DNA of 64,000 nt. Source: Balamuthia mandrillaris (Eukaryota). Under the pieces are notes generated by a model. That model did not search any database, was not told the DNA's origin, and saw only the letters and a program-made list of their open reading frames with translations. Positions within the stretch are counted from its first letter, which is position 1. Each line of letters starts with the position of its first letter. Shown here piece by piece: positions 22,926 through 53,983 of this stretch. The stretch covers positions 1-64,000 of the forward strand of contig JAVKOQ020000046.1 in NCBI GenBank assembly GCA_031835245.2, in the 5' to 3' direction. A program made the position numbers and the translations under genes.

Positions 22926-25900
22926 ATGCAAAAGAACAAAACGGATGAGCTAGAACCCGATGGACCGCGCTTATACCAACAACCACAACCACTACAAAAC
23001 GGCGAAAAGAAGACTCACACCACAAAGAGCAGGACCAAACACAAGGTCCGATACCGCAGCTTCTCCTGCATCACCTCTACTGATCAGGCTGCGATGGCCG
23101 CTGAGGCCCAAGCCCAAAAAGCAGAGGAGGAGCAACGGGCTCATCAACAACCAAACAACAGCAACACTGATGAGACGATGGGGACTATGCCTCCTGCCTC
23201 TGTGATTTATTTCCCCACGTCGAAGAACGCAGAGGAGAACAGAGAGCAGCCGCAACAACCATCACCAGAACAAACACAGCTTTCCACTTCTGTCCCTGCA
23301 GGAGACTCGATGAGGAAACTTGACGAGCAGCAAGTGCCCTCTTCTGCGTTCCTGTCTGCTGCTGGCCCTCTGTCTTCTGGACATTCTTCTACTCCAACGT
23401 TAACAGCAATGAAGAATGGGCAAGAAAAAGCAAAAGCTCCCAAGCGACGACTGAAGCGCAGTCTTTCAACTTCTAATGCTCTTTCTTCTTTGTTGGAGAC
23501 GCGAGAAAAGGGGGATGATTTCTCCTACTCCTCCTCTGTTTTATCGCCAAATGCGAACCGGAAACCTTCGTTTGTATCTACTTATGCTCAGGTACTCATC
23601 TCGCTCTCTTCTCTCTTCGTTCCTCTTATGCAACACTTGTTATTAATGATGGTTTTGCCCAAGTAGCACCGGCCCACTCCACAGGCTTCGTTAGCAGATA
23701 TAGCACAAGATCGCTATTACAAAGTAGGAGAGAAGGTACCTTTTGACGAAGACAGAGAGCATGAGTTCAAGCAGCTGCACCAAGTGGACAAACCCGTAAA
23801 ACGAATCGCCGAGTATGCGGGCAAGTACATCAACGCTTTCCTTAACACCAACGGAGGAGTGTGTTACTTTGGTATCGATGACGATGGTGTGGTCCATGGT
23901 GTACACCTTCCTAGAGCATCCAGGTATACCGTCCACTTTGTTTTTTTTTTGGTCTTGTTTGTTTCATGTTTCGTTTGTTGCCTTATGCTTTTCATTGTTT
24001 ATGTAATCCCCCTCCTTTTGGGGTTCGGCATTGTCATTTTAACACAACAAAACAGGGACGCAGTACGGTTACACGTAGATGGAATTGTGGAGGCCTTTTG
24101 GCCCGCTGTAGATGCAAGGACTTGCGCCATCGTATTCGTGCCATTGGCTCCACCAGCCAACCCCGATTTTTATGTGATGGAACTGCACGTCAGCAAAGGT
24201 ACTGCGCCTGTTTATTTGATGAGCAGGAGCCGTCCGACGGCCTACATTCGTCGTGCAGGAAGTATTTATCAGATGAGCATGGAAATGATATTGCAAAGAA
24301 TGAACTTCACCATGAATGCTTCTGGCTCATTTTTTCAACCTATTCAAGGCACTCTTCTCTCTCTCTCTCTCTCTCTCTCTCCCTCCCTCCCTCTACTTTT
24401 TGTAGTTAACTGGTTGTATAGATAAGTTAACTTACAAGTTGGAAGCTGCACCACGAGATTTCGTTGGCCGGAAAGGTGAGCTGGAAGAAATTATTGCCAC
24501 GGTGGAACAATCCGAGGAACATGTTAAAGTCGTGTGCCTCTATGGACAAGGCGGCGTGGGTACGTTCTTTGCTCTGCAATCTTTGCGTTTCTTTCTTTAG
24601 GTGTGCAGTCAAGAATTAATGAATTTGTTCTCTTCGCTCCATTCCGTTTTGTTTTTTCTGAGCACAGGAAAGACAACGCTCAGTCGCCGCTTAGCGGCAA
24701 GCATGGCAAGCAGCTATCCTGACGGCCAGTTCTGCATCAAGCTGAACGGCTCCACCTCCAAACCAACGGAACCCTATGACGCAATGGTCTACACCATTCG
24801 TGCTTTCAACCCTTCCATCGACATGCCCTCCAGCGCCACCGAAGTGGAGGGCTACTACCTCTCTTGCTTCAACCAAAAGCGAATGATCCTGTTGTTGGAT
24901 GATGCTTCTACCATCACCCAAATCACCTCTTTGATCCCTCGTTCCACTTGTCTCGTTATCATCACCTCTCGCAGAAACTTAGGACTTGAGTCTGGAGGCG
25001 AAGTAAATGCAGTTTGCGTCAAGAAATTGGGTAGGCTCTCCAAAGAAGAAGCCAAGTTGATGCTGCTTCAAATGGAAGCCACCCAACCTCCAAAGATCAA
25101 TTATCCTCATATGCTTGCTGCTTCTCCCAATCATCAACTCCAACCGGCCCTCACTTCTTCATTTCCTGAGCCACCTCTCTCTCCGCCTTCATCGCCAAGA
25201 CTTGGTTCTTCAGAAGCCTTCTCAGACGGACCTTCTTCAACCTCTGCTGTCTCTTCTCCTCCTGGATCTTCATCCACTTCAATTCCTTCCACCAACCCTT
25301 CAACGTCCCAAGCAACACATGCGGAACCTCGGTTAACCGAAGAACAAGCCGAACGGTTAGCAGAGTTATGCGGTTACCTTCCTTTGGCATTGCGAGTTGT
25401 TGGTGGCACTCTCGCCAAACAAAAGAACTTGAAAGCGGCAACCCTCATTGAGCGACTGTCAAAAAATGAAGCAGAGATATTGCGGCTCGAAGCCAACACA
25501 GTCGAGATGTGCATTAGTGCTTCCTACGATTTGTTACCTCCTAAATTGCAGCGACTATTCCTTTCATTGTCTCTCTTTCCTGGTACTTTTGATGGTAAAT
25601 ACCTTCACGGTCTTATGCTTTATCCTATTCCATTCCTAACACAACTAACTAACGTAACCCAAACCAAAACTCAGAAATGGCAGTTGCACATGTCTGTGGG
25701 GCAGACGAAAGCGTGATAGTGGAAGGTCTAAGCGAGCTACTCACCAGTAGCTTATTAGAATTCAATCCGGTGGCTTGGAGATACCATCTCCACGATACGG
25801 TGCGAGTCTTCGCCTCCATCACAGCAATCAAGCACGATGAGGAGTATAGACAGAAACAAAAAGCAAAACTCGCAGAACGACAACGCTCCGACGTTGTTGC

Positions 25901-28900
25901 AGATGAAAACAAACTTTCGTTGTTGTATTTGTGGAAGAATCGTTTCGTGGAATACTTTTACAACCTGTTGGAGAAAGTGAACACGTTATGCAAGAAAGGT
26001 GGAGATGACCTACTTTCCGGCTTCAAGTTATTCGATTCAAACAGCCACAACATCAAAGAGGCGATGCGGCTCTGCGTGATGGAACTGCACAAATATGACC
26101 TGTTTTGTGGCTTTGCTAGGCTTGGAAAGTACATCTTCCGCACGAGACTGAATCCATATTCCTTCTCCGAACTCTATCAAAGCTTGTTGGGAGCAGTGGG
26201 AGAACGTTCAGCAAAGAAAGGAGGAGATGACGAAGAAGAAGAAGAAGAGCTACAAGGTTTGAGAGCACAACGGAAAAAGTTATCAGGAGGATTATCCGAC
26301 ACGGACCGCGTGTTGATTCTCAACGAATTGGGATTTGCATATTCTGCACAGGGCAAGTACGATGTCGCCGAAAAGTGTTATGCAGAGTCTCTTCGCATCG
26401 CAGAAGAACACGTTGAGGATGGAGATAAGCAGGAAAAGGTTAGTAACGACACCGCGGCAACGAGAAGCATTGGGTTGAAGACATCTTTGGATATGGGCAC
26501 CACCAACCTTTCCATGTGGAAAGGAGCAGTCTCTTCTGCCTTGAACCATCTCGGCAAACTCTACTGCGATCAATGCAAGTACTCTTTAGCTGAACGACAC
26601 TTGAAGAGAGCTCTCAGTATCCGAGAAAACCTCTACAGCCATCTGAAGGCACAAATGGAATCCATCAACATCCATAGCAACGATAAGCAGCAATCCAAAG
26701 AGGAAGAGGAAGAAGAGAACGAATATTTAGAAGTATGTTTGGAGAAGATCGGAGAGAGCTTAATGTCGTTGGGAGCGGCATACACCCAACTCGGAAAATA
26801 CGATGAAGCAGAACAGCTCTTCAAACGTGCTCTTACGATCTACAAACCTGATTATCAATTTACCGAGAACCCTTCTTCTTTATCTTCTTCCTCGTCATTT
26901 CCATCATCAACTGGAGGCGGAAGTAACACTCGTCGTCCATTGTCTCGAAGTGGATGGCGCCGAAGAGAAGGTTTTCGTGAAGTCAATAAGATACTGCGAA
27001 GACATGTTCATGTTCGCCGGAAAGGCAGCGACACCGAAGAAGACTCCAGCTCTGACGATGACGATGATACCAACAAGCGAAACACCACTCAGCAGCAGTC
27101 TTCTTCTCCTTGTTCCTCTGGCCGACACAAAGTAAGAAAACATCGACGTCCAGCCATCGATTATGGATTACAAGTAGCCAATTGTTTGGACCATTTGGGC
27201 AGATTGCTCAGTACCAAAAGCAAATATGCCGAAGCAAAAGCTCTTCACACGGATAGTCTTTTGCTAAAGAAGCGATTGTTGGGACACACTCACCTAGAAG
27301 TTGCCCGCACCAGACAATGTCTGGCCAAAGTGTTGGGCATGGAGGGAAAGTATGCGGAGGCTATAGCAGAGTATCAGAGCTCGATGGAGATAAGGAAGGT
27401 CTGTTTGAGCCCCGAGCATCCGCTTGTAGCCAACAGTCTTAGGCATATCGCTTTCCTCCACTTCTATACGGGTGACTATGACGTGGCTGAAGTAAGCCCT
27501 TCTTTCTTCCAGTTCTTTCAGCTCTTCCTGTTCTTCATTCCCCCCCTCCCTCCTCCTTTTTGCTTCTTTTAAACTCAACTTTGTGTATTTTAGTCGATGT
27601 ATTTAGAAGCGTTGGACATGTTGAAGGAAGTGTTGGGAACAAAACACTTGGAAGTAGCCATCGTTCTCAATGATCTTGGCCTTATCTACAACCATCAAGC
27701 ACGCTACGACGAAAGTGAGCCATTGTTCCTTCGTTCACTACACATTCGTAAAAAACTGTTGGGAGAGCAACATCCTTACGTTGCTGTTGTTCTTAACAAT
27801 ATTGGCAACTTGTACGTCCGTGTGCTTTATCTCCGCTTTTTTCCTTCGTTTCTTCGCTTTATGTTTTTGTTCTCGTTATTTCTGCTCTTGGTCCTAATTT
27901 GCTGACATAAACAAGATATCGAAAACAACGGAAGTATGAAGAGGCGGAGAAAAACTTTGCATTGGCGCTGAAGATACGCGAAAACTGTTTCGGAGAGGAA
28001 CATCCGGAAGTAGCACGCACATTGCACAACATCGCTACTTCCTACTCTGCCCAAAAACAGTACGCCAAAGCCAAAGACCTCTTTGAACGATCCCTCCATA
28101 TCCGAACCAAGGGTATTGTTAATGCTTTCTTGTGTTGTGTGATTCTTTGGTGTTATTTTCATTTTTGTTTTTGCTGTAATTCTAACACTGTTACTCTTGT
28201 TACTTAAATTTTAGTATTGGGACCAGACCATCCCGAAGTGGCAAGCGTATGCAATGGACTTGGCACTCTCCATGAATGTCAAAAGGACTGTGCGGAGGCA
28301 CTGCGTTACTATCGCCTCGCTCTAGATCTCAACCGCAAGTCATTTGGGGCGTACCATCCTTCCATCGGGCTCAATCTTTATAAGATGGGCAACTGTCTGA
28401 GAATGATGAAACAATACGCTGAAGCAGAACCCCTCTTGAAGGAAGCTCTCATTCATACCAAAAAGTGTTTCGGAGGCAACGAATCATCATCCTCGTCTTC
28501 TTCGTCATCTTCTTCCTTGAATCAACGGGATTGTTATTCGTTCAGAACATTACAAAGCATGCAATCGTTGCAAAAGTTTTACAGAGAATGGGCGGAATAC
28601 TGCGTCAACAAGCTTCAATCAAGACACAAAACGGAGAAAGAAGAAGAATCGGAGGAAAGAGAGCACGATCAACAGCAACAACACAAATCAAGAGAAGAAA
28701 GGAAGCAATTAAAGAAACTGCGGAAAGCAAAAGAGATCGAAGAGGAGCAGCTACAACGAAAAGCTGAAGAGAACTTTAAGAACTGCGCTTTCATCCTGAA
28801 AGAAATGGGCAAAGAGGATGAGGCTAACGAAGTGTTGAAACGAATGGAATGCATGAGAGAGCATCAAGAAAAACACAAAAGACGAAAAATCGAAAAGATC

Positions 28901-29185
28901 AAGCGAGAAAGAGAAATGTGGTTAGCGAAAGAACGAAAAGAGCAAACTGCTGCAGCTTCTGCTTCTTCCTCTTCGAAAGGGCTGGCGACGAAAGAAGTGG
29001 TAAAGAAGGAAAACAACAAGAAGCAGATCCAGCAGCAAACCAAAAAACAAAAAGCGCAACCAACGAAAACGAAGGTGGAAGAAGGACACAGTGACTCTTT
29101 CCGGTTTTTCCTGTTGCTCGTTTTCTGTTCGTTGATGGGCGTGTTATTATCGTTGCTCTACTCCCAGGTGTATGGCGCTTCTTGA
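22926..29185 (+). CDS. Schlafen/AlbA_2 - NB-ARC (STAND) - TPR - TM protein (NLR-like), 9 exons
   Basis: Introns reconstructed in frame: 23592-23666, 23924-24055, 24349-24421 (GC-AG), 24560-24667, 25595-25674, 27492-27593, 27812-27915, ~28112-28214. AlbA_2: FDEDREHEFK..YINAFLNTNGGVCYFGIDDDGVVHGV. NB-ARC: DFVGRKGEL, Walker A GQGGV|GKTT, Walker B ILLLDDA, IITSRR, LCGYLPLAL, SYDLL, YHLHD. TPRs with HP(E/L/Y)VA motifs. Hydrophobic C-terminus FFLLLVFCSLMGVLLSLLY. Confidence 0.9.
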
Positions 29186-44574: not shown

Positions 44575-45939
44575 GTGGGACCGATAATAGGTGGCTATCT
44601 GGCCCAACCAGCCAAGAAGTATCCTTCATTGTTTCCGAAAGATAGCTTCTTCGACCACTATCCCTACTTGATGCCTTGCCTCGTTGGTGCAAGCGTAACT
44701 CTTGTTGGATTGATAGCTGGATACTTCTTCTTGACTGAAACCCTTCAAAAGTCTCCGAAGAAAGAAGCAGACATAGAGATGAAGCCTATAAGAAAGCAAT
44801 ACAGAGTAAGAGGAAGAAGATAATAATGACGTTGAACAACAGGAGCAAAACTTGGAGGACGATGAAGCAGAACACTTGTCACTGGTTGGAAAGCGGAGTA
44901 AAGGCAATGCTTCACTAGAGGATGACAACCACTCAACGCAGGCAACTTCCTTAGTTGCCACTTTGTCACATCGCAAGGTTGCCATCCCTTGTTTGATGTA
45001 TTTCTTTGCAGCTCTTATTTTTATAAGCTTTGCCGGTACGCGCTTTTTTTACTCTTTTGCGTAGTTCTTCTCTTGTCTTGGTCTTGTCGTTCTTGTTCTT
45101 CTTCCTCTTCCTCTTTCATTACAGTTTTACAGTATCCTGCAACATCATTTCTTTTCTTTCTTCATTCAATCAGAACTGTTTTCCATCTGGAGCGTACAAC
45201 AAGTCGAAGACGGTGGTCTGGCCTTCACTTCGCAGAACATCGGCACCACGGCGTCCATCTCCGGACTAATGATGGCCTTCTTCCAACTGGTCCGCTACCC
45301 TCGCCTGGCCAATCGTTTTGGACCGCTCTTCATGTTTCGCGCTTCGATGATTTGCGTCATTCCCATCGTTCTCTTCTTTCCCAATCTCAACCTGTTAGCC
45401 AGACATATCCCTGATGCTCGCTGGTTGCTATGGATGGTGCTCGTTTCTTCGGTGAGCGTGCGGTACATGTCAAGCGTTAGCTGCTTCATCTCTATTTCAA
45501 TCATGATTTCAAACTCTGCTCCAAATGCTAAACTCGGTTTATTCTCTCTCTCTCTCTCTCTCTCTCCCTCTCCTTCCTCTCTCCTCTCTCTCTCTCTCTC
45601 TCCTCCTCTCTCTCTCTCCTCCTCCTCCTCTCATCCACATATTTTCACATTTAACACCAACATACAGGGGCTGTGAATGGATTGGGTCAATCGCTGGCAT
45701 CATTGGGAAGGACAGTCGGTCCAACGGTGGCTGGCATCACGTTTTCTTGGTCTCTTAGCAATGGGATAGGTTTCCCCTTTGACTTTCGTTTCGCTTACTT
45801 TGTGTTGGCGTTCCTCTGTCTTTTTGGTGTTCTCATCAGGTTCGTCCGTCCCTTTTATTCGAAGAGATTAACACTTATTCTTTGTTATGTTTCCGGTTTA
45901 AAGTTTGGTTTTGCCATCAACCATAAATGTTTCTTTTGA
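43579..45939 (+). CDS. MFS transporter (ZIFL/DHA1-like); 3' end approximate
   Basis: RTPLP..KLFVI, IFPYVAFMVKDF, WGWLADKWGRRPVLLLG (MFS motif A), GNIGVTKTYLAEITDSSNRA, GPIIGGYLAQPA, NGLGQSLASLGRTVGP. Confidence 0.9.
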
Positions 45940-46106: not shown

Positions 46107-47634
46107 TTACTGCTCTCCTTCTTCTGGTTGTTGTTCAGAGGAGGAAGGAGAAGGCTTGAGGAGGATTTCTCTTTCATAGAGCTCATCTTTGGACTTGCGG
46201 TTGACGAGGTTCTTTTCCAATTCTTGTGACTTGTGCTCTTTCTCCAAAGCTACGCTGGCGGCTACGATGGAAGGAGAGACGTCAGTATCTTTGATAACAT
46301 TCTTCTGCACCAGCTCGTCTTTTTCTGGTCTGTTTTCGATCTTCTTCTTCAAGCTCAGAGAAACCTGTTCTTTTTCTGTTCCAAGAATAGGAGTCAGAAA
46401 AGAAAGGAAGAGAAGGAAAAGCAAAGACAGAGCAAGAACAAACCTAAAGCAACTTTGGCTTGAAGGATGGAAGAGGAGACGTCAGAAGCAGGCATCACAT
46501 TTCTTTGGATGAGCTCCTCCTTCTCCGGTCTGCTCTCCAAGTGCATTTCCAACTGTTGAGCCAACTGCTCTTTTTTCAACGACTCTTGAGCCGCTTGCAA
46601 ACTTGGTGCGATATTTGTGCCTGAGAAAGTAAACCAATCAAGTAAGTATGTATAGAGGAAAGAAGGAAAGACATCAAAAGAGAAACGAGGAAGAGGAAAA
46701 GAAAAAGAAAAAGAGAACGAAAAAAGAGAGAGACAGTCTTTCTCTATTTATTTACCAGATTTAATAACGTTGTGCTCAATCAGTTCATCAATAGTGGGAC
46801 GTCTTTCGATCTTTCTTTCGAGTTCTTGTGAGAGCTGCTCCTTCTCGAGGGCTGCTTTGGCGGCTTGCAAGTTGGGCGCAACGCTGTCGTCCTTCATAAT
46901 GTTCTTTTGCACTAACGAATCTTTCTCCGCTCTGTGCGCCAATTTCTTTGCCAAAGCTGTACGCAATGAAAGTCATTAAACGAGTTGGAAAGACAACAAA
47001 AAAATAAATGAATAGAAAAGAAAAGAAAAAGAAAAAATTATAACAAAAAACGAAAGAAAGAAGGAGAAAACTAGAGCATAATAACTTACAGTCTTTAACG
47101 CTGCTTCCTTGATCGTTTGATTCCTGGTCATCAGCGTCTTCTTCCTCCTCCTCTGCCTCTGCCTCCGCCTCCTCCTCCTCATCGTCATCATCGTCATCGC
47201 TGTCACCATCAGCTTCTGCCTCATCATCATCAGAAGAAGAAGAGGAATAACGAGCTCCACGACGACGATACTTCTTCTCATCATCAGAGTCCGAAAGCTC
47301 CACTTTTTCGTCCTCCTCGCCATCCTCTTCGGGAGTAAAGGGAGTGCCTGGCTCAGGGAAGTAGGCTGGCATCAGGAACTCGTAGCAACGCTTCTCCTTT
47401 TCCAAAAACACGCAGAAGATGATGCGATCAAACTTGGTCCTGTTGTCGCCTTCTTGCAACCATTTTCGCACCGTCTATTCGTTTGTTTAGTTTCGTCAAT
47501 ATCAGAATTAAAAGTCAAGAGAAAAGAGAGCAAAGGAAAAGAAGGAAGACCTTAAGAGCAATGCGAGAAGCAGCGTAAAGAGGATAACCATAAATGCCTG
47601 TTGAAATGCCACAAAACGCCTTTATTTCATCCAC

Positions 47635-47673
<39 letters not shown>

Positions 47674-49000
47674 GAGAGAGAGAGAGAGAGAGAGAGAGAT
47701 GTTAACATAAAAGCGAACACAACAAAAAAAGAAGAGAGAAAGGCCTACAATGCTCCTGAGGTTGTTTTCAACAGCAACGTCAAGACACCTTCTGTAACAA
47801 GAACGCAACTTGGTGGGGTACTCGCCGACCGGCCCAACCGTGTGCAATATAAACTTGGCGGGCAACCTGTATCCTCTCGAGATCTTACAGTCGCCGGTCT
47901 TGCAGCCTTTATGTTCGTAGCAGTTGTTGATCAGACAGTGATAAAGAATAGAAGAAGACAGAATGAAGAAAGACAAAAAGGAACAATGAAAGGAAGAAAC
48001 GACAAGAAAGAAAACGAACAAACGAACGACAAGAGAAGAAAGAGGAAGACGAAGAAAACAAACCATTCAATTGAAGACACTCCTCATAGAGATCATCTCC
48101 AGCAGCCCTATGAATAGCCCCATCGATGCCTCCTCCTCCCAGCAAGGACCTGTTGGCCGCGTTGACCACTCCATCAATCTCCAGCGTGGTGATGTCGCCC
48201 CTCCACAGGGAGACTATGCGGTTGAGCTCCGCGTCGCCCTCAAACAGGGCCTGGTCCGCCGGGTGCTTCTTCTCCTCCTCCTCGGCCTCCTCGTCCGAGT
48301 CTTTTCTTCTCCACCTTCCTCCTCCACCGCCCCATCCTCCAAACCCGCCCCAACCTCCTCCTCCTCCTCCTCCCCATCCTCCTCGATTGAAAGCTTGATT
48401 CCTTCCACCTTTGTTGGCAATGTTTTCGTCCCCGTCAGAGCTGTCGGAAGAATCGGATGAGGAGGAATCCAGGGAGAGGTCCTCCACGGGAGGAGGGAGC
48501 TCCTCGCCGCGCTCCTTGGCCTCCTGCTCCAGCCTCTGGCGCTCCTCCAGGAGGGCCGCTTTCCTCTGCCGTCTCTCCTCCCGGGCCTTGGCACGAAGCT
48601 CCGCCTTTTCCCTCTGACGCTGCTCCTTGGCGAGCCTCTCCTGCTCCTCCTTCTCCCTCTTGAGGCGCTCCTTCTCCTCCTTCTCCCGGCGCTCCCGCTC
48701 TTTCCTCTCCTTGAGGGCCCCCTGCTGCTCCTCCCAGGTGGTGAGGTCCTCCAGGCCGGCAAAGCGGTCGCGGCAGCGGTAGCGCTTGCGGCGCTCCTCC
48801 AGGGAGAGGGCCTCCTCCCTGCGCCACATCTCCTCCCTCGTGAATTGCGGCTCCCTTCTCCTCCAGCTCCATCCGCCGCCGCCGCCACCTCCTTTACCGC
48901 CGCCGCCGCCACCGCTCACCCCCCAGCCACCACCAAAGCCGCCGCCACCACCACCACCGCTCACCCCCCAACCACCACCAAAGCCGCCACCGCCGAACAT
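46107..49000 (-). CDS. MacroD-type macrodomain (ADP-ribosylhydrolase) fused to five C-terminal RPEL repeats
   Basis: Macro: [69 protein letters not shown]. Phase-1 intron 46957-47089 joins ..[14 protein letters not shown] in frame. Further introns 46621-46755 and 46376-46443 keep frame through five RPEL-like units. Confidence 0.88.
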
Positions 49001-49467
49001 TTATGGAATATGTTGAGTTCTTCTTTCTTTTGTGTGCTCTTCTTCGGCTAAAGAGAGAAGAAGCAGAAGAGGGAGAAGCCGGAAGGGAAGCAGAAGAAGA
49101 AGAAGAAGAAATGGAAGAACTGAAAAGAATTTTTTTTGTCTGAGCTTATATGCTTTCACGGAAGTAATTTAGCGAGATAAACAAGGGAGGGAAAGCGTTG
49201 TCCTTGGCAGAACGGAGCATAAAGGAGTGAAACAATGTGGACAGTTTTCCTCGCAGACCAGAACGGGGACGCGGAATAAGGACCCACGTATGACGTCACC
49301 GAGGGAGGACCAGCAGTTGTGCAGCTTATGACCACCTTTTTATCATTCCAAACATTCTTCACATACCGAAAAAGAATGAAATTTTGCACGAGGAGCCTTT
49401 GCATCAGACTTGGAAAAAAATTAAACGCCACAGAAGCTAGCTGCCAGCCGAGGGAAGCCCTGCAAGG

Positions 49468-52400
49468 ATGGATGCCTCAAGGAGTACTCGTCGTCCGTTG
49501 TTCCCGAATGCCACTCATCCCGACTCTGAAGAAGAGGTGAGTGCTCTCTCTCTCTTCTTTCCATCACTAAATTTTAACTTGATGTGGCCGTATCAGCAAA
49601 TACGGCCGCTGTTTCCTATTGCGAAAGATTCCTCCTCCTCCTCCTCCTACTCCTCCTCTTCTTCTTCTTCAGGCGCTGTAAACAGTTTTACTCCACTATT
49701 TCCCATCTTTCCTTCCACTTCTTTTTCTTCTTCTTCTGCCTCTTCAACCTTTTCTGCTGCTTCATCGCTGGCCCTCGTTTCAGGCTCCTCCTCCTACGTC
49801 GCTCCTGGTGGAGAGCAAGAGTCCCATGACTCTTCCCCCTCCGATGAGGAAAGGAAAGGAAGGCAGCTTGTGGCGGTGAAGCCCTCTTCCGAGAAGAGAC
49901 CCAGAGCTGCTGACTTTTTTCGCTCGGTTGTGTCGCTGCTCAGCAGCAGTGACAGCGAAGAGAGGGAAGAAGAGGAAGAGGAGGAAGAGCAGCGCAGAAA
50001 GCACAAACGAAAGACACGAACGAAAGAAGAGGAAGAGGAGAAGAGACAGAAGAAGAGAAAGAGAGACGACAAGAAAGGGACGACACGAAGAAAGAAGGAC
50101 AAAGAAAGAAAGAGAAAGAAGAAGCACAAGAAGGAGAGGGAACGGGCGAAGGAAAAGAGGAAGAGCAGAAAGAAGGTTGGAAAAGAAGAAGAAGGCAAGA
50201 GGGAGCTTACCGCTGCAGAGAGGGAGAAGGAATTGCGTTTGGAAAGACAGCTCGCTAAAGAGGATATCCGCAGAGCCTCCATGCGATGGCTTGATCCGTC
50301 TAAGTACCTTTTTTGTTTCTCTCTCTCTTTCTCTCTCGTTCTTCGTTCTCTCCTTGTTTTTTTTTGTTCTCTATTTTGTCTATTCTCTTTTAACAGTCGT
50401 TTGTTTGGTGTGAAAACAAATAGAGAATATGACAACGTGGAAGAACTCTTTGAGTACAACTTCAAAGGAGACCGAAACAACCTTGTCTTTGGCTACTTAT
50501 ATACACAGGACATTCCTCGCTACCATCGCAGACAACGGTTCTGCCTTGGGCTTCCCTCCAACGAACGACTCTCCGTGTCAAAGCATTTTGGCTATCTCAT
50601 CATCAACTTGGAAAATTCCACCACTCACAGCGCTCGATACTGCAATCCCAAGTTCGCAGTTGGGATGCCAACTTCCTCTTCTTATTCTTCTTCTGTTAAA
50701 GGAAAGAAAACAACAAAGAAGGACAAACAAGAAGGAGAAGCGGAGCAAGACCAACAAGCAGAAGAAAGCGAAAGGAATGGCTTTATTTCGTTGGCGGGAT
50801 ATTCGAGTGATGAGGAAGATGGTCAGTTTGAAAGTGATGCAGAGGAAGAGGAAGAAGAAACAGTGGATGAATATTTACGGAGAAGGACCAGAGAATATAA
50901 TGAGCAAACGCGAGAGCATCCTAAAGACATCAAACTGTGGTTGCAATATATTGCCTTTCAGGATGAGTATCAAGCTTTAAGCTCTCGAGGTTTGTTTCCT
51001 TTGCTGTTTATTCTTTTTCGTTCTTCTTTATGAAGTTTGTTGACTGTTCTCTTTGTTTCAAGGAGGAGCAAGTGCAAAGCTTGTGCTGGACAAGAAGCTG
51101 GCCATTTACGAGAAAGCGCTTGCAGCCAATTCAAATTCATTCGTTTTGCTTTCAGGTTACTTGCTAACTTCTGCCAAAGTCTTAGAGTACGTTTTTCTTC
51201 TTGTTCTTCTTCTTGTTCTTGTTCTTCTTCTTGTTCTTGTTCTTCTTCTTCTTCTTCTTCTTCTTCTTCTTCTTCTTCTTCTTCTTCTCACTTCTCGCTG
51301 TGTATTAAAAGTGGTGAGCGGACATTACGTCTTTGGGAACAAACTCTAAACGAGCATCCCGCAGACGTGAAACTATGGAAACTCTATATATCATTCCGTA
51401 TATCCAGTTTCTCCACATTCACCGTTTCAGAGATTCGCGAAACGTTCATTTCAGCAATTCAAACATTGAACGAACAACGTTTAGTCCTCATGATGTTACC
51501 AACGAGCGAGCAGAACTTAAAACAAGATGAAAGAAGAAGAACTGAGAGGAAGCGAGAAAAAGAGTTACGACGAATGGAACAAGCCATGCTGGAAGTCTTT
51601 GTGCAAGCTTGTTACTTCGAGAAACGAGCAGGATACTCCGAGAAAGCGATCGCCATGTTTCAAGCTTTGTTGGAGTTCAACTGTTTTGCTCCTGATGCGT
51701 CTTTATTGCTACCAGGAGCAAACGAAGCAATAACAGCTGCGACGGCAGAAGAAAGAAGAAAGAAGAAAGCCACACAAACAGCAAAGCAGATGAAAAGAAT
51801 GCACCAAGCAAAGTTAAAGTTCTTTGAAGCGTTTTGGGAGTCAGAGACGTCCCGTTTGGGAGAAAGCGATGCAAAAGGATGGCAAGCTTGGATAGAAGCG
51901 ACTATGCAAAGCTCAAAGACTGCAACAGAAACAACAACAAAAACGTCTATCAATGAAGCAAAGGAAGAAGAAAAGAGGAATGAAGAAGACGAAGCCGGAG
52001 GGAGCGCGTTTAGCAAATGGGCAAAAGAGGAAGATCGACTCGATTCTATATGTATTTTACCTCAAACGTCGAAGAACACACCAACACATCTTCTGACAGA
52101 TCCAGAAAGAGTTGTGCTCTTCGAAGATATCAAGCACTTCTTATTTAGCTTTGCTTTCTTGGAAGATGGCGAGCGGCTACTGTTGTTCCATTTTTTGCGA
52201 TTTATAGGGCTTTATCACGTTTCTCTCGACTTTGCCTCTACTTCCACGTCATTTCATACATCAACAAACAAAGAAAGCACGGAAAGAGAAGAAGATGACC
52301 AAGGAGAGGAAGACATTGCGTTTGCTTCGAGCGAGGCTAGACTAGACGTTACGGACCGTTTAGAAGACTTAAGTTCGCTATTTCAGATGTTGTCTGACCC

Positions 52401-53983
52401 TGTTGCGCATAGCTCAAAGAAGTCGACAAAGCCAATGAACGAAACAAACGAAGAACAAGAAGATATACTGAGGATGATACCCACTGATTTGGCCACGTGG
52501 ACCATTTTCGCTCACCAACGCTTTCGGCCTCTTATCAATGACGATGTCAAAGTATTTGTCAGGTATCTTGTTTTCTTTGTTTTTCCTTCTGTCATGATTT
52601 GCTTCACTTCCATATTGATGTTTTCCTTTCTATAGCAACGTACTATCACAAACAAGATCCGCCCTTTTTGCGGCCGATGACGACTTGGCGTTAGCTCACA
52701 TCCGTCTCATTGCCTCTCCCACCTACAATAACGCTTCTCAACAACAGCATTTAGAAGGTTTACGCAAAGGTTGTGCCATGGCAAAGTCTCTGCTCAGCGC
52801 TCAGCGCACTAATCTCGTTCTCTACCACGAGTACGCTCTTATGGAAAACGCGACTGGAAATGTTGCGCAAGCTCGCAAGGTTTATTCGATGGCCCTTACA
52901 ATGTTGAAAAGCTTATCAGAGGAGGCGCGTCGTCATACGTTCCTTTTGTTGCGCGGTTTTGCAGAGATGGAGTTTTATCGAATGGAAGGAGGAGAAGGAG
53001 AAGGAGACGAGGAGCAGAAGAGGGAACAACGACGGTTGGAGAACGAAAGACGAGCGTTGCATATTCTTTCTTCGTTAAACTCCGGAGAAACATTTGATGA
53101 TTTAAGCATCGTATCCTCCGCCCAGGGCTTGTTGAAGGAGGTTCCTCCCACAAAATTGTTGAAAGCCAGAAAGGTTTTTTTCCTCGCTCTGTTTTCTGTT
53201 TGTTGTCCTTTTTTCTGTTATCTTTCCCTACACTTTGTCTACTCCGATAAATGACATCTCTCTCTCTCTCTCTCATATTTCGAAAGGTTTTCAAGCAAGC
53301 GTTGCAAGCAGAGTTCGACAACCTACGTCCGAAGGATCATTTACTCGACGGGTCGATGCCACAGAGACTCAAACATATAGGTATTGCTTACGCCATCTTT
53401 GAGTACCTGGCCTCTGGCTTGGAGGATGCCTGCAACGTCTTTGAAACAGTACTGGATGGATTGGAACGAGGTCCCTCGTCGACTGCTCCTCCTTTGTTGA
53501 ATGTTAACACCGACTTGGAGTATTTCTGGATAGCGTATGCTTTTTGCCTTGTTTTATTTCTTTTCCCTCCTCAAACAAAACTGACTGACTCGGTTACAGT
53601 TACATAAGAATGATGTACAGACACGCTTCCTATCACAGCAATGTTCCGCCGGGAAGACTTCGCCAACTCGTCGAACAAAGAGCCCTCAAAACTTTTCCTT
53701 CTAGCCCAGTTCTACTCTCTCTCTTCATCAAAGGCGAGGCAAGAAGCAAGATAGAGAACCGCATTCGAAGACACTTTGACGCCGCTTTGGAAAGATACTC
53801 TCGTGAACCGTTGTTATGGTTGTTTGCGGTTCGTTCAGAAGTGATGCGACTCGGTTCTGCTCATCGCATCCGGTCATTGTTTGAACGGGCTGTATCTTCC
53901 GTTGAGTTTGAAAGGTTTGTTTTGTTTATTTTGCTGCTCTCTCTCTCTCACGCTTACCTTTGTCTTTCTCTCGCTCACGCTTA

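What the first reader, a model, noticed from the sequence alone, without database searches (positions are those of the whole stretch)
46107..49000. Macrodomain ADP-ribosylhydrolase fused to five RPEL (G-actin-binding) repeats
Seen: a MacroD-type domain with intact NAAN..GGGGIDG and ISTGIYGYP motifs, an acidic linker, then an in-frame phase-1 splice into five repeats. These are [80 protein letters not shown] and [20 protein letters not shown], with 44 aa between repeats 1 and 2. Established: RPEL motifs bind G-actin and control MRTF, Phactr and ArhGAP12; MacroD proteins remove mono-ADP-ribose; several bacterial toxins ADP-ribosylate actin. Inference: either an actin-sensing de-ADP-ribosylase or an actin-repair enzyme countering toxins of ingested bacteria. 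Caveat: most actin toxins modify Arg177, whereas MacroD enzymes prefer Asp/Glu linkages. I do not know this fusion from the literature.
Basis: partly seen in the sequence, partly recalled or inferred. Interest (0 to 1): 0.75.

Follow-up and report, generated by a model that had tools for sequence, protein, structure and literature searches.

The report
MacroD enzyme fused to actin-sensor repeats
A gene of an amoeba-like eukaryote is predicted to join an enzyme domain of the kind that strips ADP-ribose tags from proteins to five repeats of the kind that bind unpolymerised actin; a transcript of another amoeba has the same combination, I found no paper describing it, and it would likely tie this enzyme to the cell's free-actin pool.

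Summary
On the minus strand, 49000..46107, seven GT-AG exons give a 731-residue protein. It has a Gly/Trp-rich and charged N-terminus, a MacroD1/2-type macrodomain (Pfam PF01661) and an 84-residue acidic linker (net charge -34). Five RPEL repeats (PF02755) follow, spaced 44-45 residues apart. The repeat array aligns without gaps to RPEL2-spacer-RPEL3 of mouse MRTF-A/MAL in its solved actin complexes.

No RNA data could be laid on the window. However, a complete 759-residue ORF from a Gocevia fonbrunei (Amoebozoa, Discosea) transcriptome has the same order: macrodomain, acidic linker, five RPELs. So the fusion is very likely one protein and is conserved. The closest macro ortholog, a Luapeleamoeba hula transcript isoform, lacks RPELs.

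The architecture is rare:
- 0 of the 150 best RPEL relatives carry a macrodomain.
- 0 of the 120 best short-query macro relatives carry RPEL.
- 1 of 74 long macro relatives carries RPEL.
- Four paper searches found no description.

This scan had not noted the fusion before. It had noted RPEL-exocyst and macro-gelsolin fusions in other genomes.

Function is inferred. The most likely reading is a mono-ADP-ribosylhydrolase gated or positioned by G-actin, as in other RPEL proteins. Repair of Arg177-modified actin is chemically disfavoured.

The parts
46107..49000 (-). Whole coding region of the Macro-RPEL gene: 7 exons, 731 codons, ATG at 49000-48998, TAA at 46109-46107
   Evidence: Gene model built and translated. 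An in-frame TAA lies directly upstream of the ATG. It aligns collinearly with the transcript-derived orthologs P0151 and P0275.
48860..49000 (-). Gly/Trp-rich N-terminus (residues 1-47, 32 Gly), partly a 45-bp tandem duplication; absent from orthologs; may not be translated if Met58 is the start
   Evidence: TRF finds 48897-48988, period 45, 2 copies, 91% matches. The alignment shows it is absent from orthologs.
48725..48841 (-). Conserved N-terminal extension motif of MacroD1/2-type proteins ([24 protein letters not shown]), followed by an E/R/K-rich stretch
   Evidence: Aligned with Luapeleamoeba P0151, Gocevia P0275 and a protein named ADP-ribose glycohydrolase MACROD2 by its source (P0174).
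48302..48394 (-). Second Gly/Trp-rich insertion ([24 protein letters not shown]), specific to this genome
   Evidence: Absent from P0151 and P0275 in the alignment.
47343..48250 (-). MacroD-type macrodomain (residues 251-432), split over exons 1-4 by introns 48063-47907, 47748-47620 and 47550-47475
   Evidence: Pfam PF01661. Best solved relatives are human MacroD2 4iqy (E 5e-18) and MacroD1 2x47 for exon 1, and the chains 5fsu and 5fsz (deposited as 'MACRODOMAIN') for exon 2. It is 79% identical over 182 residues to P0151 and 69% over 180 to P0275. The three exon junctions align without gaps to those transcripts.
48101..48157 (-). Catalytic-loop region [19 protein letters not shown], with the Asn, the Gly-rich loop and the Asp/His pair
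   Evidence: Identical to human MacroD2 at these columns in the printed alignment. Roles of Asn92, Asp102/His and the loop Gly are from passages of PMC7050489. The residue-number mapping is my inference.
47581..47610 (-). Second conserved macro motif [10 protein letters not shown] (exon 3)
   Evidence: Conserved in all aligned MacroD relatives except P0152, which has a gap there.
47091..47342 (-). Acidic, Ser-rich linker (residues 433-516; 21 E, 21 D, net charge -34); poorly conserved in sequence but acidic in both orthologs
46957..47089 (-). Intron 4, the junction on which the fusion depends: 133 nt, GTAAGT...CAG, phase 1, 76% pyrimidine and 26% G+C on the coding strand, like the other five introns
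   Evidence: If retained, the frame runs on for about 100 residues of mostly hydrophobic, Phe-rich sequence with no family match, to a stop at 46788.
46895..46954 (-). RPEL1 ([20 protein letters not shown]); Pro replaced by Ala, Glu by Ser; starts one codon after the intron-4 acceptor
   Evidence: One of 2 Pfam stretches in exon 5. Aligns to RPEL2 of MAL and to RPEL1 of Gocevia P0275, LEKKLIDRPDKKDLVDKNIM.
46763..46822 (-). RPEL2 ([20 protein letters not shown]), canonical
   Evidence: Best Pfam stretch of exon 5. Aligns to RPEL3 of MAL.
46493..46552 (-). RPEL3 ([20 protein letters not shown]), canonical
   Evidence: Pfam E 2e-7. Collinear with P0275.
46293..46352 (-). RPEL4 ([20 protein letters not shown]), canonical; matches MAL RPEL2 at L118, K121, I122, R125 and P126
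   Evidence: Pfam E 1.9e-9. Alignment to 2yjf/2yje/3tpm/3tpq. Contact residues are from passages of PMC2583105.
46161..46220 (-). RPEL5 ([20 protein letters not shown]); Pro replaced by Lys; not scored separately by Pfam
   Evidence: Aligned to RPEL3 of MAL within a 66-residue gap-free alignment.

Best explanation
The gene at 49000..46107 (minus strand) is predicted to encode one 731-residue protein. In it a MacroD1/2-type macrodomain, likely an active mono-ADP-ribosylhydrolase, is followed by an acidic linker and an MRTF-like array of five RPEL repeats. The array is predicted to bind G-actin and would make the enzyme's availability or location depend on the free-actin pool.

Shown:
- the domains, their order and the open spliced frame;
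- the conservation of catalytic-loop residues and of the RPEL actin-contact positions;
- the same architecture in a Gocevia fonbrunei transcript.

Inferred:
- that intron 4 is spliced as modelled in this organism;
- that the macrodomain hydrolyses ester-linked (Asp/Glu) mono-ADP-ribose or O-acetyl-ADP-ribose;
- that each RPEL binds one actin monomer in the cleft between actin subdomains 1 and 3;
- that actin loading holds back or relocates the enzyme when G-actin is high and releases it when actin polymerises. This copies the logic of MRTF and Phactr.
For: (1) Domains. Pfam Macro and RPEL are above cut-off in the exon ORFs. The macro exons are closest to human MacroD2/MacroD1 and to the chains 5fsu and 5fsz, deposited as 'MACRODOMAIN'. 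The Asn, Gly-rich loop, Asp and His columns are identical to MacroD2 (roles from PMC7050489 passages).

(2) One frame. Seven exons with six GT-AG introns give 731 codons. All six introns share one signature, 66-81% pyrimidine and 26-40% G+C, against 43-64% G+C in exons.

(3) RPEL1 cannot stand alone. It begins one codon after the intron-4 acceptor. The RPEL frame is closed 16 nt upstream of that acceptor, and its first in-frame ATG lies after the RPEL1 core. So RPEL1 can only be translated by splicing onto an upstream exon. Exon 4 is the adjacent one, has no stop and ends in the matching phase.

(4) No room for a second gene. The gene sits between the divergently transcribed NRDE-2 gene and ORFs of at least 40 aa on the + strand that reach 45939 in the stop-to-stop listing.

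(5) Independent support. P0275 is a complete 759-residue ORF from a Gocevia fonbrunei Trinity transcript. It has Macro (E 3.3e-35) plus RPEL (E 3.4e-24). It aligns collinearly with the model from the N-terminal motif to the fifth RPEL: 69% identity in the macrodomain and 45% over 198 residues of the array.

(6) The array is MRTF-like. Exons 5 and 7 align without gaps over 62-66 residues to RPEL2-spacer-RPEL3 of MAL in its actin complexes. The invariant Arg, the two helix-1 hydrophobic positions and the helix-2 hydrophobic positions are kept in 5 of 5 repeats. Pro is kept in 3 of 5 (against PMC2583105 passages).

(7) Precedent. In RPEL proteins G-actin occupancy follows actin dynamics and controls the host protein. 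In Phactr, G-actin competes with PP1 (PMC7599070 passages).
Against:
- The closest macro ortholog found (Luapeleamoeba hula isoform i10, P0151, 79% identical in the macrodomain) ends after an acidic/Lys-rich tail and has no RPEL. The RPEL tail is therefore not universal in the clade, or it is isoform-specific.
- The linker sequence around the junction is not conserved, so comparison supports domain order, not the exact splice.
- No RPEL protein of an amoebozoan has, to my knowledge, been tested for actin binding (one search found no relevant paper).
- RPEL1 and RPEL5 lack the Pro. A P126A change lowered the affinity of MAL RPEL2 16-fold.
- Nothing in the sequence shows how actin loading would reach the macrodomain across an 84-residue acidic linker.
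- No MRTF-like basic nuclear-import elements are obvious in the array (my reading of the sequence).
Confidence: 0.45

Rival explanations
1. Actin, or a protein riding on G-actin, is the substrate. The RPEL array would act as a substrate-recruiting arm that holds up to five actin monomers next to the hydrolase, which removes ADP-ribose from actin. The modification could be endogenous or made by toxins of ingested bacteria.
For: A tether of about 84 flexible residues between the binding array and the catalytic domain fits a recruit-and-process enzyme. The physiological substrates of MacroD1/2 are described as largely elusive (PMC7050489 passage), so actin is not excluded. Another window of this scan was noted to join a macro-type domain to a gelsolin core (e1-7448028; an unchecked AI note). 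If true, that would be a second macro-actin link.
Against: MacroD-type enzymes cleave ester-linked Asp/Glu-ADP-ribose, O-acetyl-ADP-ribose and phosphate-linked nucleic-acid ends. The classical actin toxins modify Arg177 (recalled), an N-glycosidic link handled by ARH1 (abstract in the listing). No Asp/Glu ADP-ribosylation of actin is known to me. The characterised RPEL proteins I saw passages for, or recall, use actin as a signal and not as a substrate (and recall).
Confidence: 0.22
2. The direction is reversed. The macrodomain acts mainly as a reader that docks on ADP-ribosylated proteins or nucleic-acid ends, and the RPEL array brings or sequesters actin monomers there. Alternatively, the array simply buffers G-actin and the enzyme is a passenger.
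For: Macrodomains can be readers as well as erasers. Among 150 close RPEL relatives, arrays with the same 44-residue period are attached to other modules: cofilin/ADF-H, p25-alpha, FYVE and Kelch. This suggests a portable actin-loading module.
Against: The catalytic-loop residues are intact and the domain is 69-79% identical to plain MacroD orthologs. That argues for a working enzyme and not a mere reader. [quoted passage not shown]
Confidence: 0.1
3. The fusion is a gene-model artefact in this genome. The macro gene and the RPEL exons would be separate transcripts, and the Gocevia contig would be an assembly chimera.
For: No RNA reads could be laid on the window. The Luapeleamoeba ortholog isoform lacks RPEL. 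Trinity assemblies can contain chimeras (general knowledge).
Against: A genome model and a transcriptome ORF from different species give the same order and the same number of repeats in one open frame. RPEL1 has no possible start codon of its own, and exon 4 has no stop. Only 133 nt separate the two parts. A chance chimera would rarely keep a 759-codon frame open across the join.
Confidence: 0.05

Closest known systems
MRTF-A/MAL RPEL domain (mouse; PDB 2yjf, 2yje, 3tpm, 3tpq, 2v52)
   Same: Tandem RPEL motifs with spacers of the same length. Exons 5 and 7 align gap-free over 62-66 residues to RPEL2-spacer-RPEL3 (E 8e-8 to 5e-7). The invariant Arg and the hydrophobic contact positions are kept.
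   Different: Five repeats instead of three. The array is C-terminal and attached to an enzyme, not to a transcription coactivator. No obvious basic nuclear-import elements in the array. Actin binding is untested.
Phactr1-4 (PP1 cofactors) and ArhGAP12-family RhoGAPs: RPEL proteins in which G-actin controls an enzyme activity
   Same: RPEL motifs sit beside or within an enzymatic or enzyme-binding module. In Phactr, G-actin competes with PP1 (PMC7599070 passages). Phactr1's RPEL domain (4b1z) is a weaker PDB hit, E 7e-5 to 8e-4.
   Different: The effector here is a macrodomain. No RVxF-type overlap with an RPEL is seen. The RPELs are separated from the catalytic domain by a long acidic linker. 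That G-actin inhibits ArhGAP12's GAP activity is recalled by me and not seen in a call.
Human MacroD2 / MacroD1 (PDB 4iqy, 2x47, 6y4y)
   Same: Same macrodomain class: conserved Asn, Gly-rich loop, Asp/His and GIYGYP motif, plus an N-terminal helical extension motif. An acidic, probably disordered tail follows the domain.
   Different: MacroD1/2 carry no RPEL repeats: 0 of 120 best relatives of exon 2 and 73 of 74 long relatives of P0151 lack them. The Gly/Trp-rich insertions are specific to this genome.
Gocevia fonbrunei EukProt protein EP01089_P008572 (P0275), uncharacterised
   Same: Same architecture from end to end: N-terminal motif, charged region, macrodomain, acidic linker, five RPEL repeats. 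69% identity in the macrodomain and 45% in the array.
   Different: Longer linker (about 140 residues) and no Gly/Trp-rich segments. It is known only as a transcriptome ORF. I found no paper on it.
Cofilin/ADF-H + six RPEL proteins (P0001; metagenome loci L001-L003)
   Same: Closest RPEL arrays by score (E 6e-31 to exon 7; 43% identity over 198 residues), with the same 44-residue period and a ...VAPSLQAAK.ALEKEQ... spacer.
   Different: The N-terminal module is an actin-depolymerising-factor homology domain, not a macrodomain.

Membership tests
MacroD-type macrodomain (Pfam PF01661; MacroD1/MacroD2 class) | Significant match to the Macro profile | tested here: met
   38.7 bits (exon-1 ORF) and 69.1 bits (exon-2/3 ORF) against a cut-off of 22.
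MacroD-type macrodomain (Pfam PF01661; MacroD1/MacroD2 class) | Closest solved structures belong to the MacroD class and not to the ALC1-like, PARG-like or macroH2A-like classes | tested here: met
   Top PDB hits are MacroD2 4iqy, MacroD1 2x47, 5fsu/5fsz (deposited as 'MACRODOMAIN'), 5cms (deposited as 'O-acetyl-ADP-ribose deacetylase') and 5l9k (deposited as 'MACROD-TYPE MACRODOMAIN').
MacroD-type macrodomain (Pfam PF01661; MacroD1/MacroD2 class) | Catalytic-loop residues: Asn (MacroD2 Asn92), Gly-rich loop, Asp102/His pair, and the Gly of the second loop | tested here: met
   [16 protein letters not shown] is identical to MacroD2 at these columns. [10 protein letters not shown] is present. 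Residue roles are from PMC7050489 passages. The number mapping is inferred.
MacroD-type macrodomain (Pfam PF01661; MacroD1/MacroD2 class) | Hydrolysis of Asp/Glu-linked mono-ADP-ribose or O-acetyl-ADP-ribose | not testable with these tools
   Needs an enzyme assay.
RPEL repeat proteins (Pfam PF02755) | Significant match to the RPEL profile, in several copies | tested here: met
   51.4, 30.9 and 37.3 bits against a cut-off of 23. Four stretches are scored separately. The fifth is aligned to MAL RPEL3.
RPEL repeat proteins (Pfam PF02755) | Core RPxxxEL with the invariant Arg, and hydrophobic positions of helix 1 and helix 2 that contact actin | tested here: met
   Arg 5 of 5. Helix-1 L/(I,L) pair 5 of 5. 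Helix-2 and C-cap hydrophobics 5 of 5. Pro 3 of 5 (Ala in RPEL1, Lys in RPEL5). Glu 4 of 5 (Ser in RPEL1). From, with positions per PMC2583105 passages.
RPEL repeat proteins (Pfam PF02755) | Binding of G-actin, sensitive to mutation of the Arg | not testable with these tools
   No eukaryotic actin sequence was available to the complex predictor. A biochemical assay is needed.
MRTF/myocardin family | RPEL domain joined to basic, SAP, coiled-coil and transactivation regions | tested here: not met
   No Pfam family other than Macro and RPEL scored above its cut-off in the gene's exon ORFs. The RPEL array is C-terminal. It resembles the MRTF RPEL domain but is not an MRTF.
Phactr family | C-terminal RPEL domain overlapping an RVxF-type PP1-binding sequence | tested here: not met
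   The protein ends ...[22 protein letters not shown], with no RVxF-like string after or within RPEL5. The Phactr feature is from PMC7599070 passages.

The most novel reading that the evidence does not exclude
Discosean amoebae carry a conserved enzyme that wires the erasure of mono-ADP-ribosylation directly to the G-actin pool. It would be the first natural link between RPEL actin sensing and ADP-ribosyl signalling. By Rosetta-stone logic it points to actin dynamics, or actin itself, as the long-sought physiological context of MacroD1/2-type hydrolases. It also shows that MRTF-style multi-RPEL sensors are old, portable modules plugged onto different effectors (MacroD, ADF-H, p25-alpha, FYVE, Kelch) outside animals.
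Probability: 0.35. Interest if true: 0.75.

Novelty: new variant of a known kind. Interest (0 to 1): 0.6.

Why it matters
The physiological substrates and roles of MacroD1 and MacroD2 are described as largely elusive (PMC7050489 passage). A natural, conserved fusion of a MacroD-type enzyme to a five-fold G-actin-binding array gives a concrete hypothesis that can be tested at the bench: these hydrolases work with, or are controlled by, the actin monomer pool.

It would also add a fourth kind of effector (an ADP-ribosylhydrolase) to the short list of RPEL-controlled activities: transcription coactivator, PP1 cofactor and RhoGAP. And it shows that MRTF-like RPEL arrays with conserved spacer length exist in Amoebozoa. 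This bears on when actin-sensing signalling arose.

Tried and rejected
- Whole genome. None is held for the window.
- Word-index search with exon 7 among longer proteins. 245 candidates, none at E <= 0.001. This is uninformative, because short repeats cannot reach significance against 5.8 billion sequences.
- HMMER over 1.84 billion representatives with exon 7. 283 hits at E <= 1e-3. Of the best 150, 0 carry a macrodomain by Pfam or by local phmmer. P0275 was not among the 150.
- Exon 2 among longer proteins. 3108 hits, and 0 of the best 120 carry RPEL.
- ESM Atlas with exon 7. 30 of 30 named hits are RPEL-only clusters.
- Metagenome contigs with P0275. 622 pattern matches, none confirmed.
- Metagenome contigs with a 7-sequence RPEL alignment.
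- Metagenome contigs with a 3-sequence alignment. 11 loci, and 0 of 11 have any macro similarity. Three are cofilin-RPEL.
- Earlier scan notes. Nothing at this place, nothing by sequence, and no Macro-RPEL note by words.
- Papers. RPEL + 'macro domain' gave 0, RPEL + 'macrodomain' gave 0, and RPEL + 'ADP-ribosylation' gave 6, none on this by title or abstract start. RPEL + 'Amoebozoa' gave 1, irrelevant. One search was badly framed and gave nothing useful.
- Positional one-to-one orthology of the five repeats between the window and Gocevia. Not resolved by identity counts.
- Not attempted. Structure or complex prediction was not run.
- Considered and rejected. The RPEL exons cannot belong to the downstream neighbour, because those ORFs lie on the opposite strand. 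Retention of intron 4 gives a roughly 100-residue tail without family matches.
Full report
**What is there**

The region 46107-49000 reads as a gene on the minus strand. I defined seven exons: 49000-48064, 47906-47749, 47619-47551, 47474-47090, 46956-46756, 46620-46444 and 46375-46107. All six introns are GT..AG, and the joined frame is open for 731 codons, ending in TAA at 46109-46107. An in-frame TAA sits directly before the ATG at 49000.

The introns are 68-157 nt long, 66-81% pyrimidine on the coding strand and 26-40% G+C. The exons are 43-64% G+C. Intron 4, on which the fusion depends, looks like the five others.

**Domains**

Pfam finds Macro (PF01661) in the exon-1 ORF (E 1.1e-9) and the exon-2/3 ORF (E 4e-19). 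It finds RPEL (PF02755) in the exon-5 ORF (E 7.2e-14, two stretches), the exon-6 ORF (E 2e-7) and the exon-7 ORF (E 1.9e-9). All are above the curated cut-offs.

The protein, in order:
- residues 1-47, Gly/Trp-rich;
- an E/R/K-rich stretch that holds a conserved N-terminal motif (residues 54-92);
- a second Gly/Trp-rich insertion (residues 203-233);
- the macrodomain (about residues 251-432);
- an acidic linker (residues 433-516; 21 E, 21 D, net charge -34);
- five RPEL repeats with their Arg at residues 525, 569, 614, 658 and 702;
- a short Ser/Glu/Pro tail.

The Arg-to-Arg period is 44, 45, 44 and 44.

**The macrodomain is of the MacroD class and looks active**

The exon-1 part is closest to human MacroD2 (4iqy, E 5e-18) and MacroD1 (2x47). 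The exon-2 part is closest to the chains 5fsu and 5fsz, deposited as 'MACRODOMAIN' (E 1e-18 and 6e-18), and then to MacroD1/2. I recall 5fsu and 5fsz as trypanosome proteins, but no call named their organism.

In the printed alignment, the Asn of NAAN, the GGGG loop, and the Asp and His that follow are identical to MacroD2. [10 protein letters not shown] is present. Passages of the review PMC7050489 give the roles of Asn92, the loop Gly and the Asp102/His pair. My mapping of residue numbers onto the alignment is an inference.

The same review states that MacroD-type enzymes cleave the ester link of Asp/Glu-ADP-ribose, O-acetyl-ADP-ribose and phosphate esters at nucleic-acid ends. It also states that the physiological substrates of MacroD1/2 remain largely elusive.

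**The RPEL array is MRTF-like**

Exon 7 (RPEL4-spacer-RPEL5) and exon 5 (RPEL1-spacer-RPEL2) each align without a gap over 62-66 residues to RPEL2-spacer-RPEL3 of MAL/MRTF-A. The chains are 2yjf, 2yje, 3tpm and 3tpq (deposited as MAL or MKL/myocardin-like protein 1), with E 8e-8 to 5e-7. The match to the Phactr1 RPEL domain 4b1z is weaker. That these chains come from actin complexes is my recall; the search listed molecule names only.

Passages of PMC2583105 name the contacts of MAL RPEL2:
- L118, K121 and I122 of helix 1 sit in the actin cleft between subdomains 1 and 3.
- The invariant R125 is critical for binding.
- P126 matters (P126A lowers affinity 16-fold).
- Hydrophobic residues of helix 2 sit on the subdomain-3 ledge.

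Here the Arg and the helix-1 and helix-2 hydrophobic positions are kept in 5 of 5 repeats. Pro is kept in 3 of 5: Ala in RPEL1 and Lys in RPEL5. MAL RPEL1 has Arg at that position and still binds at about 1 µM. RPEL4 matches MAL RPEL2 at all five named positions.

**Is it one protein?**

The case rests on three lines of evidence.

(a) Gene structure.
- Exon 4 has no stop. If intron 4 is retained, the frame continues for about 100 residues without family matches.
- The RPEL frame opens only 16 nt before the acceptor, and its first ATG lies after the RPEL1 core. A well-formed RPEL1 can therefore only be translated by splicing to an upstream exon.
- Exon 4 is adjacent and in the matching phase 1, with a GTAAGT donor.

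(b) Position. The gene is boxed in. The NRDE-2 gene lies divergently upstream (PF08424, E 7.8e-53). On the other side, ORFs of at least 40 aa on the opposite strand reach 45939 in the stop-to-stop listing.

(c) Comparison. The closest relative of the macro exons is P0151, a 367-residue ORF from a Luapeleamoeba hula transcriptome. A search with P0151 for longer proteins gave 74 hits at E <= 1e-10. One of them, P0275, carries both PF02755 and PF01661.

P0275 is a complete 759-residue ORF from a Gocevia fonbrunei Trinity transcript. My own Pfam scan gives Macro at E 3.3e-35 and RPEL at E 3.4e-24. It aligns collinearly with the window's model from the N-terminal MW..LSLEERR.RYRC motif through the macrodomain (69% identity over 180 residues), an acidic linker and five RPEL repeats (45% over 198 residues).

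The alignments to P0151 and P0275 cross the junctions of introns 1, 2, 3 and 6 without a gap, and that of intron 5 with one single-residue gap next to it. This supports those splice sites. Around intron 4 only the RPEL1 side is conserved ([20 protein letters not shown] against LEKKLIDRPDKKDLVDKNIM).

A genome model and a transcript from two species giving the same order and repeat number make a mis-model or an assembly chimera unlikely. I put that rival at about 5%.

**Against universality**

P0151 is the closest macro ortholog (79% over 182 residues). It ends after an acidic and Lys/Thr/Glu-rich tail and has no RPEL. It is labelled isoform i10, so other isoforms may differ. I could not see them.

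**Source organism**

Both orthologs are from Amoebozoa, Discosea. The model, P0151, P0275 and P0276 (Cavostelium) share AFCG(I/V)STG where other relatives have AFPCISTG. Other genes in the window (RasGEF, NB-ARC+TPR, RING+TRAF zinc finger, SH3) fit a eukaryote with rich signalling machinery. I infer a discosean amoeba near the Acanthamoebidae. This is an inference from best hits, not an identification.

**How rare is the architecture?**

- Of the 150 best representatives matching exon 7 (283 at E <= 1e-3 among 1.84 billion), 0 carry a macrodomain.
- Four of the 150 carry another domain: Cofilin/ADF-H (P0001, the best hit), p25-alpha (P0036, Colponema), FYVE (P0101) and Kelch (P0143).
- Eleven had no family at the thresholds used.
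- Of the 120 best relatives of exon 2 (out of 3108), 0 carry RPEL.
- Atlas neighbours are RPEL-only (30 of 30).
- Two metagenome scans found no further case. The first confirmed nothing. In the second, 0 of 11 loci had macro similarity and three are cofilin-RPEL.
- Full-text searches for RPEL with 'macro domain', 'macrodomain', 'ADP-ribosylation' or 'Amoebozoa' returned 0, 0, 6 (none relevant by title or abstract start) and 1 (irrelevant) papers.

I could not query InterPro architectures, so the combination may be listed there without comment.

**Mechanism**

Passages of PMC7599070 state that G-actin binding to RPEL proteins follows actin dynamics, and that in Phactr G-actin competes with PP1. 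That G-actin restrains MRTF nuclear accumulation is also stated in PMC2583105. That it inhibits ArhGAP12's GAP activity is my recollection.

By that precedent I commit to the following reading. The array loads G-actin when monomer is abundant, which holds back or relocates the hydrolase. Actin polymerisation frees it. I give this 0.45.

The alternatives:
- Actin or an actin-bound protein is the substrate (0.22). Linkage chemistry disfavours this for Arg177-modified actin. It is not excluded for an unknown ester-linked modification.
- A reversed logic, in which the macrodomain targets actin monomers to ADP-ribosylated sites (0.10).

None of these is tested.

**Earlier scan notes**

Nothing had been noted at this place or on similar sequence. 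By words, two unchecked AI notes describe an RPEL-exocyst (Sec8-like) fusion and a macro-gelsolin fusion in other genomes. They are leads that such pairings recur, not evidence.

**Verdict**

The fusion is very probably real and is conserved in at least two amoebozoan lineages. It is a new variant of known kinds: a MacroD hydrolase and an RPEL-controlled effector. Its function is inferred only. Interest 0.6.

Noticed in passing
window 48897-48988 and 48302-48394 (minus-strand coding): Two Gly/Trp-rich segments ([15 protein letters not shown] twice; [24 protein letters not shown]). The first is a 45-bp tandem duplication (2 copies, 91% matches). Both are absent from the Gocevia and Luapeleamoeba orthologs. 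They look like recent low-complexity insertions. GW/WG strings recall Argonaute-binding motifs (recalled, untested).
   Followed up: partly
P0001 (JGI metagenome protein) and loci L001-L003: The best RPEL relative is a Cofilin/ADF-H domain followed by six RPEL repeats with the same 44-residue period. Three metagenome contigs encode 56-58% identical proteins. This actin-binding domain plus RPEL-array architecture was not pursued further.
   Followed up: partly
P0036, P0101, P0143: Other RPEL fusions among the 150 closest relatives: p25-alpha/TPPP (Colponema vietnamica), a FYVE zinc finger, and a Kelch propeller.
   Followed up: no
P0279, P0285, P0287, P0290, P0292, P0293, P0298: Several amoebozoan MacroD relatives carry PF02825 together with Macro. 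By the names their sources give, the species include Thecamoeba, Acytostelium, Arcella, Copromyxa and Pelomyxa; the 'Phypoly' transcript label I read as Physarum. I recall PF02825 as the WWE domain. This is another lineage-typical MacroD architecture.
   Followed up: no
P0274 (ENA contig, 657 aa): One ORF holds two nearly identical complete copies of an N-terminal motif plus MacroD domain in tandem.
   Followed up: no
window 49441-52635 (+): An NRDE-2 family gene (PF08424, E 7.8e-53) is transcribed divergently from the Macro-RPEL gene. Only about 450 bp lie between the two likely start codons, so a shared bidirectional promoter is possible.
   Followed up: no
window 24601-29185 (+): NB-ARC followed by many TPR repeats of the NPHP3/TPR_10/TPR_12 type, an NLR-like architecture.
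   Followed up: no
window 47635-47699 and 45543-45618: (AAGA)16 on the + strand inside intron 2 of the gene, and a (TC)40 tract downstream. All six introns are strongly pyrimidine-rich on the coding strand.
   Followed up: partly
row window:46757-46954: The aligner's translation shows M for the first codon TTG of this exon piece. In the spliced protein it is Leu. This is a tool convention and not a feature of the gene.
   Followed up: yes
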